The position numbers were made by a program, and so were the translations under genes. From a virus, in the UHGV virus genome UHGV-0862315: 11,037 nucleotides of DNA. The stretch is one strand, 5' to 3'. Positions 337 to 11,037 of the stretch are shown here, piece by piece. Under the pieces are notes generated by a model. The model had not been told where the DNA came from, searched no databases, and saw nothing but the letters and a program-made list of their open reading frames with translations. How positions within the stretch are numbered: the stretch's first letter is position 1; each line of letters starts with the position of its first letter.

Positions 337-1164
337 ATGGGGTATGTCTCTATACACCGCCAGTTTATGGACAGCAGGCTCTATAAGGACTCTCAGGCAG
401 TACATCTTTGGCTTCACTTAATCCTCAAGGCTAATCACGAATCTACTGTCGTCAATACGGATATTGGGCCGATAACTGTTGATCGCGGTCAGATGATAAC
501 TGGACGCCCGTCGCTGGTCAGAGAAACATTCATCCCCGACAACAAAGTTCGGAGCTTATTACGGACTTTTGAGTCGAAAGGGATGCTTAATATTTGCTCG
601 ATGGGGAAGAAATTTAGCCTGTTTACAATCGTTAAATATGACGATTTTCAGGCAAAAAATTGTCCAACGGTTGTCCAACAGTTGTCCAACGCAAACACCA
701 GTAATGGTGCGGCTCTCAGCGGAGATTGTCCAACGGTTGTCCAACGGTTGTCCATAAACAATAATATAAATAATATCTCTAATACTGACGTATTAGAGAG
801 TGCCACAGCAGACAAAAAGTCTGACAAGAAAAAACCTTCCGTCAGCTGTCAGGATGTTGTCGATGCTTACCACGAAATCCTTCCTGAAGCGCCAAGAATC
901 CGCGCACTGAATGACAAGCGTAAAAACCAGATCCGAACGTTCTGGCGCAAAGCCGGAGTGATAACCCGCCAGCTTGACGGGCATGGGTTCACGATGCAGG
1001 ACTGGAGAAATTATTTGAGCTACGTAGGCGAAAATTGCCGATGGATGTTCGAAGAGCGCCCAAACCATCAGCGCGGAACCGTCTGGCACAAAAAGGGATT
1101 TGATTTCCTGCTTAACGATAATACCTACCTGAAAGTTCGTGAGGGTGAACACGATGACCGATAA
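337..1164 (+). CDS. phage replication initiator / replisome organiser (lambda O-like, P22 gene 18-like); alternative upstream start at 274
   Basis: Track ORF 274-1164. ATG 337 has AGGAGG at 323-328; ATG 274 has AGGAG at 262-266. N-terminus MGYVSIHRQFMDSRLYKD resembles the start of a replisome-organiser domain (recalled, not searched). The central linker is encoded by origin iterons (protein repeat CPTVVQQLSN). Immediately followed by, and overlapping, a DnaB-like helicase gene. Confidence 0.8.
   Translation: MGYVSIHRQFMDSRLYKDSQAVHLWLHLILKANHESTVVNTDIGPITVDRGQMITGRPSLVRETFIPDNKVRSLLRTFESKGMLNICSMGKKFSLFTIVKYDDFQAKNCPTVVQQLSNANTSNGAALSGDCPTVVQRLSINNNINNISNTDVLESATADKKSDKKKPSVSCQDVVDAYHEILPEAPRIRALNDKRKNQIRTFWRKAGVITRQLDGHGFTMQDWRNYLSYVGENCRWMFEERPNHQRGTVWHKKGFDFLLNDNTYLKVREGEHDDR
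660..758 (+). repeat. origin iterons: six copies of an 11-bp unit (core TTGTCCAAC) in two clusters of three (660-692, 726-758) separated by 33 bp
   Basis: Seen directly: ttgtccaacgg / ttgtccaacag / ttgtccaacgc, then a 33-bp spacer, then ttgtccaacgg / ttgtccaacgg / ttgtccataaa. Period 11 bp, so units stay in helical phase and in reading frame. Confidence 0.8.
755..795 (+). other. AT-rich tract flanking the iterons (candidate DNA unwinding element of the origin)
   Basis: aaacaataatataaataatatctctaatactgacgtatt is very AT-rich and lies directly 3' of the iterons, the arrangement known for lambda ori inside gene O. Confidence 0.6.
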
Positions 1165-4168: not shown

Positions 4169-4458
4169 TGGCTAACCTACGCAAAGAAGCACGCGGCAGA
4201 GAATGCCTGGTACGTATTTACGGCGTATGCAATGGCAATCCTGAAACTACAGTTCTGGCACATTACCGGATGGCTGGAATTTGCGGAACGGGAATGAAGC
4301 CTGACGACCTGATCGGTGCATGGGCTTGTAGTGCGTGTCACGATGAAATCGACCGACGCACCCATAATCTCGACAACAAAGACGCCAGACTTTACCACCT
4401 CGAAGGCGTGATCAGAACGCAGGCGATACTGCTGAGGGAGGGGAAGATTAAGTCATGA
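4168..4458 (+). CDS. ybcO: YbcO-like DUF1364 protein (putative nuclease, 96 aa)
   Basis: ATG 4168 overlaps the upstream stop (TAATG) with GGAGG 8 nt upstream. Cys/His-rich (CNG...CGTG...CSACHDE). Size and position directly 5' of rusA match the DLP12 ybcO-rusA arrangement as I recall it. Confidence 0.7.
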   Translation: MANLRKEARGRECLVRIYGVCNGNPETTVLAHYRMAGICGTGMKPDDLIGAWACSACHDEIDRRTHNLDNKDARLYHLEGVIRTQAILLREGKIKS

Positions 4459-4817: not shown

Positions 4818-5002
4818 ACGCCACAATTCAAACGATACCAGAGCTTCTTATCCAGACACGAGGCAATCAGACCGAAGTGGCAAGGATGCTTTCCTGCGCA
4901 AGAGGAACAGTGCTCAAGTACAACCGAGACAGCAAAGGCGAGCGTCACGTAATAGTTAACGGCGTCCTGATGGTCAAACAGGGCAAGAGGGGAAGACGAT
5001 GA
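4814..5002 (+). CDS. ninH: NinH-like small DNA-binding protein (62 aa)
   Basis: ATG 4814 overlaps the rusA stop. GNQTEVARMLSCARGTVLKY is an HTH-like segment resembling lambda NinH (recalled). Confidence 0.7.
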   Translation: MNATIQTIPELLIQTRGNQTEVARMLSCARGTVLKYNRDSKGERHVIVNGVLMVKQGKRGRR

Positions 5003-5621
5003 GACTCGAAAGCGTAGCTAAATTTCATTCGCCAAAAAGCCCGATGATGAGCGACTCACCACGGGCTACGGCTTCTGACTCTCTTTCCGGTACTGATGTG
5101 ATGGCTGCTATGGGGATGGCGCAATCACAAGCCGGATTCGGCATGGCTGCATTCTGTGGTAAGCACGAACTCAGCCAGAACGACAAACAAAAGGCTATCA
5201 ACTATCTGATGCAATTTGCACACAAGGTATCGGGGAAATACCGTGGTGTGGCAAAGCTCGAAGGAAATACTAAGGCAAAGGTACTGCAAGTGCTCGCAAC
5301 ATTCGCTTATGCGGATTATTGCCGTAGTGCCGCGACGCCGGGCGCAAGATGCAGAGATTGCCACGGTACAGGCCGTGCGGTTGATATAGCAAAAACAGAG
5401 CAGTGGGGAGAGTTGTTGAGAAAGAGTGCGGAAGATGCAAAGGCGTCGGCTATTCAAGAATGCCTGCAAGCGCCGCATATCGCGCTGTAACGATGCTAAT
5501 CCCAAACCTTACCCAACCCACCTGGTCACGCACTGTTAAGCCGCTGTATGACGCTCTGGTGGTGCAATGCCACAAAGAAGAGTCAATCGCAGACAACATT
5601 TTGAATGCGGTCACACGTTAG
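4999..5621 (+). pseudogene. Q: late antiterminator Q (lambda Q-like), split by a 1-nt frame disruption in a G4 run at 5405-5408
   Basis: Track ORFs 4999-5490 (frame 1) and 5403-5621 (frame 0) together encode one Q-like protein. Adding one G at 5405-5408 yields a continuous 207-aa product (...TEQWGRVVEKECGRCKGVGYSRM...), the length of lambda Q. Lies immediately upstream of the PR'/qut region. Confidence 0.8.
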
Positions 5622-5663: not shown

Positions 5664-5692
5664 TTGACTTTTTGAATAAACTTGGGTAAATT
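5664..5692 (+). promoter_or_regulatory. late promoter PR' (-35 TTGACT 5664-5669, 17-bp spacer, -10 TAAATT 5687-5692), with the Q-utilisation (qut) region overlapping it
   Basis: Near-consensus sigma70 hexamers with 17-bp spacing directly downstream of Q. Context matches lambda PR'/qut as I recall the lambda sequence. Confidence 0.65.
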
Positions 5693-5699
5693 TGACCCA

Positions 5700-5891
5700 A
5701 CGATGGGTTAATTCGCTCGTTGTGGTAGTGAGATAAAAAGAGGCGGCGCTTACTACCGATTCCGCCTAGTTGGTCACTTCGACGTATCGTCTGGAACTCC
5801 AACCATCGCAGGCTGAGAGGTCTGCAAAATGCAATCCCGAAACAGTTCGAAGGTAATAGTTAGAGCCTGCACAACGGTTTCGGGATTTTTT
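5700..5891 (+). ncRNA. short PR' leader transcript (lambda 6S RNA equivalent) ending at tR'
   Basis: Predicted start about 7 nt after the -10; ends at the terminator 5834-5892; no ORF with an RBS in between. Assigned by analogy to the lambda 6S transcript. Confidence 0.5.
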
Positions 5892-5892: not shown

Positions 5893-6250
5893 TATCTGCA
5901 CAACAGGTAAGAGCATTAAAGAACTGGCAAAGAGCTTAACGGTCTGCGAAAGCATTTCTTAGTGGCACAACTGGCCGGTACAACTGAGTGCTCTTTCCGG
6001 TGTGGTGAATGCGCAGGCTGATGCGCGCAGGAGAGCTTCGGAAGAACAAGGTGCCTGTATACAAGCCGGAGATCAGCGCCGGCCACCACAGCCAAATCCA
6101 CCCAGAGCAAAACCGTTGTTCATCCTTACCATTCCCTCAGTATTTTGGACTACAACCCTCAGCCCATTTTTTAAAGCGTACTTCCACCAAGAACTAGACC
6201 TAACCAACTCATTGCTGACACTCTGTGGATACGGTTGTCTAGTGCGCTTT

Positions 6251-6279
6251 AAAAAAGAAACCCAGCATCAATGGCTGGG
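6251..6279 (-). terminator. candidate minus-strand intrinsic terminator
   Basis: Stem cccagc (6261-6266) / gctggg (6274-6279) with a 7-nt loop. On the minus strand it is followed by tttctttttt (complement of 6251-6260). No supported minus-strand gene lies upstream of it. Confidence 0.35.
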
Positions 6280-6423
6280 CTTCGTGATATGAGCGGCATG
6301 TATTGTTGGCGCAATCCACGCCTGATTTGCTCATGAATGCGGTCACGAACAAACCCGTTACAAATCAACCGTAACCCGGATTTGTTCAAGCGACCATATC
6401 CATAATTCCTAATTTGAACAGAT

Positions 6424-6436
6424 CCCCTTCTGGGGG
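6424..6436 (+). promoter_or_regulatory. hairpin just upstream of the S start codons (lambda sdi-like element governing the choice between the two starts)
   Basis: cccc-ttct-ggggg ends 6 nt before the S ATG, followed by tandem starts Met1-Lys2-Met3 (ATG 6443, ATG 6449). Confidence 0.45.
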
Positions 6437-6442
6437 TAAGAC

Positions 6443-6766
6443 ATGAAGATGCCAGAAAAACATGACCTGTTAGCTGCCATTCTCGCGGCAAAGGAACAAG
6501 GCATCGGGGCAATCCTTGCGTTTGCAATGGCGTACCTTCGCGGCAGATATAATGGCGGTGCGTTTACAAAAACAGTAATCGACGCAACGATGTGCGCCAT
6601 TATCGCCTGGTTCATTCGTGACCTTCTCGACTTCGCCGGACTAAGTAGCAATCTCGCTTATATAACGAGCGTGTTCATCGGCTATATCGGCACTGACTCG
6701 ATTGGTTCGCTTATCAAACGCTTCGCTGCTAAAAAAGCCGGAGTAGAAGATGGTGGAAATCAATAA
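6443..6766 (+). CDS. S: class I holin / antiholin S (107 aa, dual-start motif MKM)
   Basis: [41 protein letters not shown]... has hydrophobic transmembrane segments and a charged C-terminus; close match to lambda S (recalled). Confidence 0.9.
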
Positions 6767-7226
6767 TCAACGTAAGGCATTCCTCGATATGCTGGCGTGG
6801 TCGGAGGGAACTGATAACGGACGTCAGAAAACCAGAAATCATGGTTATGACGTCATTGTTGGCGGAGAGCTATTCACTGATTACTCCGATCACCCTCGCA
6901 AACTTGTCACGCTAAACCCCAAACTCAAATCAACAGCAGCCGGACGTTACCAGCTTCTTTCCCGTTGGTGGGATGCCTATCGTAAGCAGCTTGGCCTGAA
7001 AGACTTCTCTCCGAAAAGCCAGGACGCTGTGGCACTGCAACAGATTAAGGAACGTGGCGCTTTACCGATGATTGATCGCGGTGATATCCGTCAGGCAATC
7101 GACCGTTGCAGCAATATCTGGGCTTCACTGCCGGGGGCTGGTTACGGTCAGTTCGAGCATAAGGTTGACAGCCTGATTGCAAAATTCAAAGAAGCTGGCG
7201 GAACGGTCAGAGAGATTGAGGTATGA
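6750..7226 (+). CDS. R: endolysin R (lambda-type lytic transglycosylase, 158 aa)
   Basis: ATG 6750 with GGAG RBS, overlapping the end of [25 protein letters not shown]... matches lambda R (recalled). Confidence 0.9.
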
Positions 7227-7690
7227 GCAGAGTCACCGCGATTATCTCCGCTCTGGTTATCTGCATCATCGTCTGCCTGTCATGGGCTGTTAATCATTAC
7301 CGTGATAACGCCATGACCTACAAAGAGCAGCGCGATAACAAGGCCAGTGAACTGGAGAAGGCGAACGCCACCATTACTGACATGCAGCAGCGCCAGCGTG
7401 ATGCTGATGCACTCGATGCTAAATACACGAAGGAGTTAGCTGATGCGAAAGCTGAAAATGATGCTCTTCGGCGCAAGCTTGATAATGGTGGCAGGGTGCT
7501 CGTCAAAGGAAAATGCCCTGTGCCATCCTCAGACGAAACCTCCAGCGCCTCCGGCATGGGCAATGATGCCACCGTCGAACTCTCTCCAGTTGCTGGACGA
7601 AACGTTCTCGGTGTCCGGGACGGAATTATCCGCGACCAAACAGCACTGAGAACGCTTCAGGAATACATCAGGACGCAATGCCTTCGATGA
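7223..7690 (+). CDS. Rz: spanin inner-membrane subunit Rz (155 aa)
   Basis: ATG overlaps the R stop (ATGA). N-terminal transmembrane segment [14 protein letters not shown] followed by a charged coiled-coil-like region. Position after R. Confidence 0.85.
7443..7649 (+). CDS. Rz1: spanin outer-membrane lipoprotein Rz1, embedded in Rz in the +1 frame
   Basis: ATG 7443 with AAGGAG RBS. Lipobox LIMVAGC and proline-rich PPAPPAW. Lies entirely inside Rz in another frame, the classic Rz/Rz1 arrangement. Confidence 0.75.
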
Positions 7691-9134: not shown

Positions 9135-9623
9135 ATGGCAGCACCAAAGGGCAACCGATTTTGGGAGGCCCGCAGTAGTCATGGGCGAAACCCTAAATTC
9201 GAATCGCCTGAGGCGCTGTGGGCTGCTTGTTGTGAATACTTCGAGTGGGCTGATGATAACCCGCTATGGGAGGGTAAGGTATTTTCATATCAGGGAGAAA
9301 TAATTAAGGCTAATGTCCCTAAGATGCGAGCCATGACTATTTCAGGATTGTGTACCTTCCTTGATATCACCAGGCAAACATGGGGAACCTTTCGGTCAAT
9401 GGAAGGTTTTTCTGACGTCACATCACGAGCGGAAGACATCATCTACGACCAGAAATTCTCTGGCGCAGCCGCTGACCTTCTCAACGCTAACATCATCGCC
9501 CGTGATTTGGGCCTCAAAGAGCAGTCGCAAGTTGAAGACGTGACACCTGATAAGGGAGATCGCGATAAGCGACGCTCTCGTATCAAGGAGCTATTCAACC
9601 GTGGAACTGGACGCGATTCTTGA
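9135..9623 (+). CDS. terminase small subunit (P22 gp3-like, 162 aa from ATG 9135; alternative start 9129)
   Basis: [38 protein letters not shown]... recognised as gp3-type small terminase (recalled); 162 aa from ATG 9135. The 3' end overlaps the large terminase start. Confidence 0.8.
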
Positions 9624-11037
9624 TAACCTGAGCGACGAAGAGCAAATCGAATTGCTCGAGCTACTCGAAGAAGAAGAGAACTACCGAAACACACACCTGC
9701 TATATGAATTTACGCCATACAACAAACAGCGTGAGTTCATCGACGCCGGACATGACTATCCAGAGCGATGTTTTATGGCTGGTAACCAGCTTGGTAAGTC
9801 ATTTACTGGTGCTGCCGAAGTCGCGTTTCACCTTACCGGGCGTTATCCGGGAACAAAAGGATATCCGGCTGATGGTAAATATGGCGGAGAGTGGAAAGGT
9901 AAGCGTTTCTATGAGCCTGTTGTTTTCTGGATTGGCGGCGAGACAAACGAGACGGTAACCAAAACGACTCAACGCATCCTGTGCGGTCGTATCGAAGAGA
10001 ATGATGAGCCTGGCTACGGTTCCATACCGAAAGAGGACATCATTAGCTGGAAGAAGTCTCCTTTCTTTCCGAATCTTGTTGATCACCTTCTGGTTAAGCA
10101 TCACACGGCTGATGGCGTTGAAGATGGCATTTCAATCTGCTACTTCAAACCATACTCGCAAGGCCGTGCTCGCTGGCAGGGTGACACAATCCACGGCGTG
10201 TGGTTTGACGAAGAGCCACCATACAGCATTTATGGCGAAGGTCTTACCCGTACCAACAAATACGGTCAATTCTCAATTCTGACGTTTACCCCGCTGATGG
10301 GGATGTCTGACGTTGTTACCAAGTTCCAGAAGAATCCCAGCAAGTCGCAGAAAGTGGTCAACATGACCATCTATGACGCTGAGCACTATACCGACGAGCA
10401 GAAAGAGCAAATCATCGCATCCTATCCAGAGCATGAGAGAGAGGCGCGTGCTCGCGGTATTCCTACGATGGGTAGTGGTCGAATCTTCCAGATACCGGAA
10501 GAGACGATTAAGTGTCAGCCGTTCGAGTGTCCTGATCACTTCTACGTAATTGGCGGGATGGATTTCGGATGGGATCACCCACAGGCGCAGGTTCAGCTTT
10601 GGTGGGATAAGGATGCAGACACAATCTACGTTTCACGCGTGTGGAAGGCGAAAGAAAAACAGCCGTTCAGGCGTGGGGAGCAGTTAAATCATGGGCGCAT
10701 AAAGTGCCAACCGCATGGCCTCATGACGGAAACCAGCACGAGAAGGGCGGCGGTGAGCAGCTTAAAGGGCAGTACGCGGAAGCTGGTTTTATGATGTTGC
10801 AGGAGCATGCGACATGGCCTGATGGCGGTAATGCTGTTGAGCCTGGCATCACTGAATTGCGCGACATGATGCTTGATGGTCGCTTCAAAGTATTCAACAC
10901 CTGTGAGCCATTCTTTGAGGAGTTTCGCCTCTATCACCGTGATGAAACGGGAAATCGTCAAGCTTAACGACGACGTGCTCTCCGCCGTTCGCTATGCATA
11001 CATGATGCGCCGCTTCGCCAAAATGATGCGCGACATC
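9601..11037 (+). pseudogene. terminase large subunit (P22 gp2-like), reading frame broken at about 10655 and restored at about 10945-10955; 3' end beyond the window
   Basis: GTG 9601 overlaps the small terminase 3' end. Frame 1 (9601 to about 10659) carries the ATPase part (AGNQLGKS); frame 0 (10641-10967) carries nuclease-domain-like motifs (AWPHDG...EKGGGEQ); frame 1 resumes at 10963 (LNDDVLSAVRYAYMMRRFAKMMRDI). Both disruptions fall in A runs. Confidence 0.8.

What the first reader, a model, noticed from the sequence alone, without database searches (positions are those of the whole stretch)
5401..5412. Q antiterminator reading frame broken by a single-base deficit in a G4 run
Frame 1 reads ...TEQWGELL... 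and stops at 5490. Restoring one G in gggg (5405-5408) gives a continuous 207-aa Q-like protein. As it stands, only a 163-aa product lacking the C-terminal third would be made, which should abolish late gene antitermination. Either this is a defective prophage or a homopolymer sequencing error.
Basis: seen in the sequence. Interest (0 to 1): 0.45.

Follow-up and report, generated by a model that had tools for sequence, protein, structure and literature searches.

The report
Lambda Q frameshift, probably sequencing error
The phage lambda-type Q antiterminator gene in this window is interrupted by one missing G, but the break is most likely a homopolymer sequencing error and not a biological feature, so it is ordinary.

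Summary
ORF 4999-5490 encodes 137 native residues of a lambda-type Q antiterminator plus 26 out-of-frame residues. The other 70 residues lie in the next frame, up to 5621. Adding one G to the G4 run (5405-5408) gives a 207-aa protein that is 206/207 identical to phage lambda Q (PDB 7UBM).

Every relative checked has G5: 114 aligned reference loci, 483 complete E. coli genomes and at least 120 viral contigs.

The break is probably not biological, for four reasons.
- The window has four more private one-base deficits and no private one-base excess. Three are in the terminase large-subunit gene, within 400 nt of the window's end. One is intergenic.
- The restored Q and terminase are 99.4-100% identical in protein to intact relatives. 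Private substitutions are 15 synonymous to 3 non-synonymous, so there is no decay.
- The same G5-to-G4 change recurs in 11 other public contigs, on at least five Q haplotypes counting the window's.
- Seven of those 11 carry further deletion-only differences, several at Dcm (CCWGG) motifs. That pattern is the published nanopore error profile.

A real, very recent inactivating deletion remains possible (about 0.2). As written, the product would lack half its zinc ribbon and its DNA-binding helix-turn-helix. Interest is low.

The parts
4999..5490 (+). Open reading frame as it stands: 163 aa, made of 137 native Q residues and 26 out-of-frame residues, ending at TAA 5488-5490
   Evidence: Pfam PF03589 Antiterm, E = 2.8e-30
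5405..5408 (+). G4 run; G5 in every relative examined. This is the site of the one-base deficit
   Evidence: 114 of 114 references have the extra G
5409..5621 (+). C-terminal 70 codons of Q (RVVEKECGRCKG...NAVTR, stop at 5619-5621), in the frame reached by adding one base. Protein is 100% identical to lambda Q over this part
   Evidence: Pfam PF03589, E = 5.8e-22 for ORF 5403-5621
5664..5692 (+). Late promoter pR' (TTGACT, 17-nt spacer, TAAATT). The Q binding element lies between the hexamers (5670-5690, ttttgaataaacttgggtaaa, two mismatches to the lambda site quoted in phage records)
   Evidence: promoter scan; sequence; annotation notes of mEp235 and HK633; HK620 annotation of pR' and qut
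5699..5704 (+). AACGAT, a -10-like element at the start of the pR' transcript. It is the sigma-dependent pause element where Q loads. The assignment rests on knowledge of lambda and was not tested here
   Evidence: sequence; mechanism in PMC9388147
5833..5891 (+). tR' intrinsic terminator (end of the lambda 6S RNA): an 11-bp outer stem followed by six T. This is the terminator that Q-modified RNA polymerase reads through
   Evidence: free energy -21.3 kcal/mol, z = -4.14, none of 200 shuffles as stable; sequence
6257..6260. Intergenic A run with a private one-base deficit. One search aligns it as A3 against A4 in HK620. Ten references have one more base and none matches the window
9601..11037 (+). 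Terminase large-subunit gene, running off the window end, broken by three private one-base deficits. The ORF as written stops at 10794 (397 aa; relatives have 499 aa)
10654..10659 (+). First terminase deficit: gaaagAAAAAcag, against AAAAAA or AAAAGA in relatives
   Evidence: 14 references with one more base, none like the window; 0 of 194 genomes share it
10945..10954 (+). Second and third terminase deficits, 7 nt apart: gatgAAAcgggAAAtcg, against gatgAAAAcgggAA(A/G)Atcg in relatives
   Evidence: (0 of 58 genomes share them)

Best explanation
The G4 run is most likely a one-base under-call of a true G5 run, made during sequencing or consensus building. It is not a mutation. The real phage would then encode a normal 207-aa lambda-type Q. 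Q binds the Q binding element inside pR', loads onto RNA polymerase paused at the AACGAT element, and lets it read through tR' into the lysis and head genes. The platform is inferred, not shown. The error pattern (deletions only, in short homopolymers, clustered near the window end) fits a deletion-prone method such as nanopore or Ion Torrent. The G5 run in this Q gene appears to be a site where that error recurs across unrelated data sets.
For: (1) The Q break is not isolated. The window has five private one-base deficits (5405, 6257-6260, 10654-10659, 10945, 10952-10954) and no private one-base excess. (2) Three of them lie in the terminase gene within 400 nt of the window end. Over the last 420 nt the window differs from E. 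coli ISHS7 by one substitution and three one-base gaps. The preceding 1,000 nt show about 30 substitutions and no gap. (3) There is no decay. The restored Q protein equals that of phage Dewey and is 206/207 identical to lambda Q. The restored terminase is 99.4-99.6% identical in protein over 480 aa to four intact relatives, although the DNA is only 94-98% identical in the three of them whose DNA was aligned. The window's private substitutions are 15 synonymous, 3 non-synonymous and 2 intergenic. All other genes have the same length as in relatives. (4) The change recurs. The predicted G4 products of 4 of the 10 commonest Q haplotypes are on record. Together with L009 that makes 11 further contigs from 11 different runs or assemblies. 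(5) Seven of those 11 carry further deficits that at least 90% of references lack, 14 in all, with no credible excess. Five are at Dcm motifs (CCTGG or CCAGG), and two specific extra deficits recur in different runs. Dcm motifs followed by homopolymer lengths are the published main classes of nanopore consensus error in Enterobacteriaceae (PMC6591954). (6) High-quality data lack the change: 0 of 483 complete E. coli genomes have G4, and 6 complete genomes carry the window's exact 131-nt local haplotype with G5.
Against: No reads or platform information were available for the window or for any of the other G4 contigs (searches found nothing), so the error is inferred from pattern only. Four of the 11 other G4 contigs (L142, L145, L147, L150) show no other deficit in 2.5-5 kb, so a real recurrent deletion at this run cannot be ruled out for them. 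The window has no deficit at any of its 12 Dcm motifs, so its error profile differs from that of the worst contigs. A3/A4 runs are short for homopolymer errors. One-base deletions in runs are also the commonest real frameshift mutation.
Confidence: 0.78

Rival explanations
1. The G4 run is a real, very recent one-base deletion caused by replication slippage in the G5 run. The prophage is then defective. The 163-aa product lacks Cys144 and Cys147 of the zinc ribbon and the helix-turn-helix half of the body, so it cannot bind the Q binding element or load onto RNA polymerase. Transcription from pR' stops at tR', and the lysis and morphogenesis genes stay silent. The terminase frameshifts would be further hits in the same grounded prophage.
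For: The sequence as given encodes only the truncated product. The parts lost are those needed for DNA binding and for contacts with NusA and the polymerase flap (PMC9388147). Four other G4 contigs have no further deficit in 2.5-5 kb, so they could be real mutants. Loss of Q would stop prophage-induced lysis and could be favoured in lysogens; this last point is an inference from general knowledge of prophage domestication.
Against: This reading needs five independent one-base deletions, no insertion and almost no accompanying non-synonymous change (15 synonymous to 3 non-synonymous) in 11 kb. In E. coli, spontaneous base substitutions outnumber small indels by roughly ten to one; that ratio is from my own knowledge of mutation-accumulation studies and was not checked here. 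Three hits in 300 nt of one gene at the window end fit low-quality consensus better than mutation. None of the changes is seen in any complete E. coli genome. The same G4 change travels with error-type deletions at Dcm motifs in other data sets.
Confidence: 0.19
2. The G4 run is real, but full-length or functional Q is still made. Possible routes are a -1 ribosomal slip on U GGG GA, polymerase slippage, two fragments that reassemble, or reversible G4/G5 switching that acts as an on/off switch for late genes.
For: A glycine tRNA on GGA could re-pair with GGG one base back, which would restore the native frame exactly (read from the sequence). The change recurs on several haplotypes.
Against: There is no X XXY YYZ slippery heptamer; the codons are CAG UGG GGA GAG. 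The 81 nt downstream fold no better than shuffles (z = -0.40). The G4 state is not conserved anywhere: it is absent from hundreds of relatives. Four or five G are far below the run lengths known for transcriptional slippage or phase variation (general knowledge). The GTG at 5403 has no evident ribosome-binding site upstream. The zinc ribbon would be split between two chains.
Confidence: 0.03

Closest known systems
Phage lambda Q antitermination protein (Q-lambda; PDB 7UBM, 7UBN, 4MO1; Pfam PF03589)
   Same: After one G is restored the protein is 206/207 identical to lambda Q. The gene order is the same: ninH, Q, pR' with the Q binding element, tR', then S, R and Rz. The four zinc-ribbon cysteines are at 118, 121, 144 and 147.
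   Different: As written, the frame shifts after residue 137. Cys144, Cys147 and residues 153-207 are therefore not in frame. There is one substitution relative to lambda (Gln for Leu at residue 136), and phage Dewey shares it.
Intact Q genes of P22-like and HK97-like coliphages and E. coli prophages (Dewey, HK97, HK620, mEp506, IME10; strains PK12, STEC384, ISHS7)
   Same: DNA identity is 96-98% over ninH, Q and pR', with the same neighbouring genes.
   Different: All of them have G5 and a 207-aa Q. All have an uninterrupted 499-aa terminase large subunit where that type of terminase is present.
Nanopore-type consensus errors in Enterobacteriaceae (Dcm-motif and homopolymer-length errors; Wick et al. 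2019, PMC6591954)
   Same: The window shows deletion-only, one-base differences in short homopolymers that are private to the sequence and clustered at one end. Other public contigs with the same G4 also have deletions at CCWGG motifs.
   Different: The window itself has no deficit at its 12 CCWGG motifs. Its sequencing platform is unknown.
Defective (grounded) lambdoid prophages with inactivated late-gene regulators
   Same: On paper, a frameshift truncates the late-gene activator and would block lysis.
   Different: Apart from the five one-base deficits, the usual marks of decay are absent: no large deletions, no insertion sequences and no excess of non-synonymous change.

Membership tests
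Lambda-type Q antiterminator (PF03589; Q-lambda) | Full-length sequence similarity to Q-lambda | tested here: met
   Both halves match PF03589 (E = 2.8e-30 and 5.8e-22). The restored protein is 206/207 identical to 7UBM chain Q.
Lambda-type Q antiterminator (PF03589; Q-lambda) | Four-cysteine zinc ribbon (residues 114-152) within one reading frame | tested here: not met
   As written, only Cys118 and Cys121 are in frame; Cys144 and Cys147 follow the shift. The feature is met once one G is restored.
Lambda-type Q antiterminator (PF03589; Q-lambda) | C-terminal half of the body with the helix-turn-helix (residues 153-207) in frame | tested here: not met
   These residues are encoded at 5409-5621 in the next frame. 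Domain limits are from PMC9388147.
Lambda-type Q antiterminator (PF03589; Q-lambda) | Cognate target downstream: pR' with a Q binding element, a pause element and the tR' terminator, ahead of the lysis genes | tested here: met
   Promoter at 5664-5692. The Q-binding-element-like sequence has two mismatches to lambda. The tR' hairpin has z = -4.14. S, R and Rz are at 6443-7690.
Programmed -1 ribosomal frameshift site | Slippery heptamer X XXY YYZ in the zero frame | tested here: not met
   The zero-frame codons are CAG UGG GGA GAG.
Programmed -1 ribosomal frameshift site | Stimulatory RNA structure downstream | tested here: not met
   The 81 nt downstream have a free energy of -23.4 kcal/mol and z = -0.40; 68 of 200 shuffles fold as well.
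Programmed -1 ribosomal frameshift site | The frameshifted arrangement is conserved among relatives | tested here: not met
   No G4 copy in 483 complete genomes, 34 phage records or 114 aligned loci.
Homopolymer or deletion-type sequencing artefact | The difference is private to the sequence and lies in a homopolymer | tested here: met
   G5 becomes G4; 114 of 114 references disagree with the window.
Homopolymer or deletion-type sequencing artefact | Other indels of one direction only in the same sequence | tested here: met
   Five private deficits and no private excess.
Homopolymer or deletion-type sequencing artefact | Coding sequence beyond the break still looks selected | tested here: met
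   The Q C-terminus is 100% identical to lambda Q. The restored terminase is 99.4-99.6% identical to four intact relatives. Private substitutions are 15 synonymous to 3 non-synonymous.
Homopolymer or deletion-type sequencing artefact | The same change recurs in unrelated data sets that carry other error-type differences | tested here: met
   Eleven other contigs; at least five haplotypes counting the window's. Seven of the 11 have further deficits, five of them at CCWGG motifs.
Homopolymer or deletion-type sequencing artefact | Read-level support: accurate reads show G5 | not testable with these tools
   No reads or platform information were available; accession searches in the paper library found nothing.
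Decaying defective prophage | Marks of relaxed selection beyond the frameshifts (non-synonymous excess, truncations, insertion sequences, deletions) | tested here: not met
   All other genes have the same length as in relatives. Private substitutions are 15 synonymous to 3 non-synonymous.
Decaying defective prophage | The broken allele is inherited, meaning it is seen in related high-quality genomes | tested here: not met
   For the Q site 0 of 483 complete E. coli genomes share the change; for the terminase sites 0 of 194 and 0 of 58.

The most novel reading that the evidence does not exclude
The G5 run in lambda-type Q genes could be a genuine slippage hot spot. It would recurrently, and perhaps reversibly, switch off late-gene antitermination in lysogens, grounding the prophage without further damage. 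That would explain why G4 copies turn up on at least five Q haplotypes, four of them in contigs with no other defect.
Probability: 0.04. Interest if true: 0.45.

Novelty: not a real feature. Interest (0 to 1): 0.06.

Why it matters
As biology it matters little. If the break were real, it would be one more defective lambdoid prophage with an inactivated late-gene activator, which is a well-known kind of thing.

The practical value is for quality control. The window carries at least five deletion-type differences, four of them in two essential late genes. Any call of "pseudogene" or "defective prophage" from this sequence should therefore wait for accurate reads. The G5 run in lambda-type Q genes also appears to be a recurrent under-call site in public assemblies, and it can create false truncated Q proteins in protein databases.

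Tried and rejected
1. Finding the window's source. Exact look-ups of the truncated terminase product found nothing. The truncated Q product was on record in only one other contig, a different phage mosaic. The source and its sequencing platform remain unknown.

2. Treating L009 as evidence that G4 is inherited. L009 shares the G4 and a rare local haplotype with the window: 0 of 93 panel genes have it, and 6 of 748 genomes carry it with G5. I rejected this as evidence of descent. L009 was found by exact match of the 163-aa product, and the out-of-frame tail of that product depends on those same sites. Looking up the predicted G4 products of common haplotypes showed that the change recurs on other backgrounds.

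3. Programmed frameshifting. There is no slippery heptamer and no downstream structure.

4. Platform information. Searches for the run and assembly accessions in the paper library found nothing. The Logan paper does not mention sequencing platforms.

5. Rfam and tRNA scans of the window found nothing.

6. A first census of private indels missed events, because gap placement inside runs varies and two events lie 7 nt apart. It was replaced by a junction k-mer test and a census with gap positions shifted to the left end of each run.

Full report
**Observation**

The window reads cagtGGGGagag at 5401-5412, with the G4 run at 5405-5408. ORF 4999-5490 gives a 163-aa product that ends ...AKTEQWGELLRKSAEDAKASAIQECLQAPHIAL. 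ORF 5403-5621 in the next frame reads GRVVEKECGRCKGVGYSR...NAVTR. The alignment with phages Dewey and HK97 shows one gap, G4 against G5. Restoring one G gives 207 aa. The truncated product shares its first 137 residues with the restored protein.

**What the gene is**

The restored protein is 206/207 identical to the phage lambda Q antitermination protein of PDB 7UBM, 7UBN and 4MO1. Both halves match Pfam PF03589.

The window is the early-right to late region of a P22-like or HK97-like lambdoid coliphage. It holds O and a DnaB-type P gene, then ninB, ninE, ninF, roi, a ybcO-family gene, rusA, ninH and Q. After Q come pR', tR', S, R, Rz, a Rha-family gene, a DUF2560 gene and the small and large terminase subunits.

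The target of Q is intact downstream:
- pR' lies at 5664-5692.
- A sequence like the Q binding element lies between the promoter hexamers, with two mismatches to lambda.
- The -10-like AACGAT element is at 5699-5704.
- The tR' hairpin with six U is at 5833-5891 (free energy -21.3 kcal/mol, z = -4.14).

**What the break would do if real**

In Q-lambda, the body is residues 61-113 plus 153-207 and carries the helix-turn-helix. The arm is a zinc ribbon at residues 114-152. Residues 133-137 at the arm tip touch sigma region 4. Residues 182-197 touch NusA, and residues 202 and 206 touch the polymerase flap-tip helix (PMC9388147).

The shift falls after residue 137. The product keeps Cys118 and Cys121 but loses Cys144, Cys147 and everything from residue 138 on. 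Such a protein should neither bind the Q binding element nor load onto RNA polymerase. Transcription from pR' would end at tR'. This step is inferred from the published structures and was not tested here.

**Is the break real?**

Five lines of evidence say probably not.

1. *It is not isolated.* Against many references, the window has private one-base deficits at 5405, 6257-6260, 10654-10659, 10945 and 10952-10954. It has no private one-base excess. The last three break the terminase large-subunit gene, whose ORF stops at 10794 after 397 aa where relatives have 499 aa. Three frame changes are needed to read it through.

2. *The terminase deficits cluster near the window end.* They lie within 400 nt of it. 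Over the last 420 nt the window differs from E. coli ISHS7 by one substitution and three one-base gaps. The 1,000 nt before that show about 30 substitutions and no gap.

3. *Nothing has decayed.* The Q C-terminus is 100% identical in protein to lambda Q. The restored terminase is 99.4-99.6% identical over 480 aa to four intact relatives, although the DNA is only 94-98% identical in the three of them whose DNA was aligned. The window's 20 private substitutions are 15 synonymous, 3 non-synonymous and 2 intergenic. Every other gene has the same length as in relatives.

4. *None of the deficits appears in complete E. coli genomes.* Counts are 0 of 483 for Q, and 0 of 194 and 0 of 58 for the terminase sites. 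Six complete genomes carry the window's exact 131-nt local haplotype with G5.

5. *The same change recurs in poor-quality data.* This is described in the next section.

**Recurrence in other data sets**

The exact 163-aa product was on record in one other contig, a Logan assembly of run ERR10497706 (L009). L009 is a different mosaic phage that shares the window's local haplotype. That sharing comes from how L009 was found. The out-of-frame tail of the product depends on the two rare sites, so an exact protein match can only find the same haplotype.

I therefore predicted the G4 products of the ten commonest Q haplotypes in my panel and looked them up. Four are on record. They come from ten further contigs, in ten runs or assemblies.

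A census of all 11 contigs against the intact references shows the following:
- Seven carry further one- or two-base deficits that at least 90% of references lack. There are 14 such deficits in all, with no credible excess.
- Five of the deficits are at Dcm motifs: gcc[T]gg, catt[C]ccctgg, cacc[TG]gtc (seen twice) and gcca[G]gt.
- Two specific extra deficits recur in different runs.

Dcm motifs first, and homopolymer lengths second, are the published main classes of nanopore consensus error in Enterobacteriaceae (PMC6591954). The G5 run of this Q gene therefore behaves as a recurrent under-call site.

**What remains open**

- I could not obtain reads or platform information for any of these sequences.
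- Four of the 11 contigs show only the G4 change in 2.5-5 kb. A real recurrent deletion at this run is not excluded for them.
- The window has no deficit at its 12 CCWGG motifs. Its error profile is purely of the homopolymer type, and the platform is uncertain.
- A real deletion, meaning a grounded prophage, therefore keeps about 0.19. It would require five deletions, no insertion and almost no non-synonymous change. That is far from the roughly ten-to-one excess of substitutions over small indels known for E. coli; the ratio is from my own knowledge and was not checked here.

**Function despite the break**

This is unlikely. There is no X XXY YYZ slippery heptamer. The downstream RNA folds no better than shuffles (z = -0.40). 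No relative conserves the G4 state. Four or five G are too few for transcriptional slippage or phase variation.

**Verdict**

The finding is ordinary, and its main use is as a warning about the quality of this sequence.

Noticed in passing
window 9601-11037 (sites 10654-10659, 10945, 10952-10954): The terminase large-subunit gene is broken by three private one-base deficits in A-rich runs, all within 400 nt of the window end. Once restored, the protein is 99.4-99.6% identical to four intact relatives.
   Followed up: yes
window 6257-6283: The window has a private one-base deficit in an intergenic A run (A3 against A4 in HK620). The run forms the T tail of a terminator-like hairpin on the minus strand (10 pairs, 6 of them G-C).
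   Followed up: partly
L009, L141-L150 (public contigs from ERR10497706, GCA_045585275.1, SRR11513900, SRR12299103, SRR11871737, SRR22106270, ERR14677075, ERR3986168, SRR30949657, SRR12298638, SRR31065154): The same G5-to-G4 change in lambda-type Q occurs in 11 other public contigs, on at least five haplotypes counting the window's. As a result, truncated 163-aa Q proteins sit in protein collections. Seven of these contigs have further deletion-only differences.
   Followed up: yes
L143 690 and L144 496; L143 1561 and L149 811: Two other deficits recur in contigs from different runs. One is gact[C]ccgccg in rusA. The other is cacc[TG]gtcac at a CCTGG motif near the 3' end of Q. This looks like systematic, context-dependent error.
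   Followed up: partly
window 4206-4210: One of the window's three private non-synonymous substitutions (4208 T where 58 references have A; Gln to Leu in the ybcO-family gene) is the central base of a Dcm motif (CCAGG becomes CCTGG). It may be another methylation-related miscall.
   Followed up: no
L003 6234-7043 (phage IME10, NC_019501.1): The RefSeq record annotates 'regulatory protein Q' as 810 nt (269 aa), extended upstream of the usual ATG. The 624-nt Q gene proper begins near L003 6420. The annotation is probably over-extended.
   Followed up: no
window 663-740: Repeated TGTCCAAC units lie inside the O gene, and their copy number differs from L014 by 22-nt and 33-nt blocks. These are presumably the iterons of the lambdoid replication origin.
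   Followed up: no
window 5920-6440: A stretch of about 500 nt lies between tR' and the holin gene and is shared with HK620. Its ORFs (6002-6292 on the plus strand, 5916-6110 on the minus strand) have no Pfam match, and it holds no tRNA genes, unlike mEp506 at the same position.
   Followed up: partly
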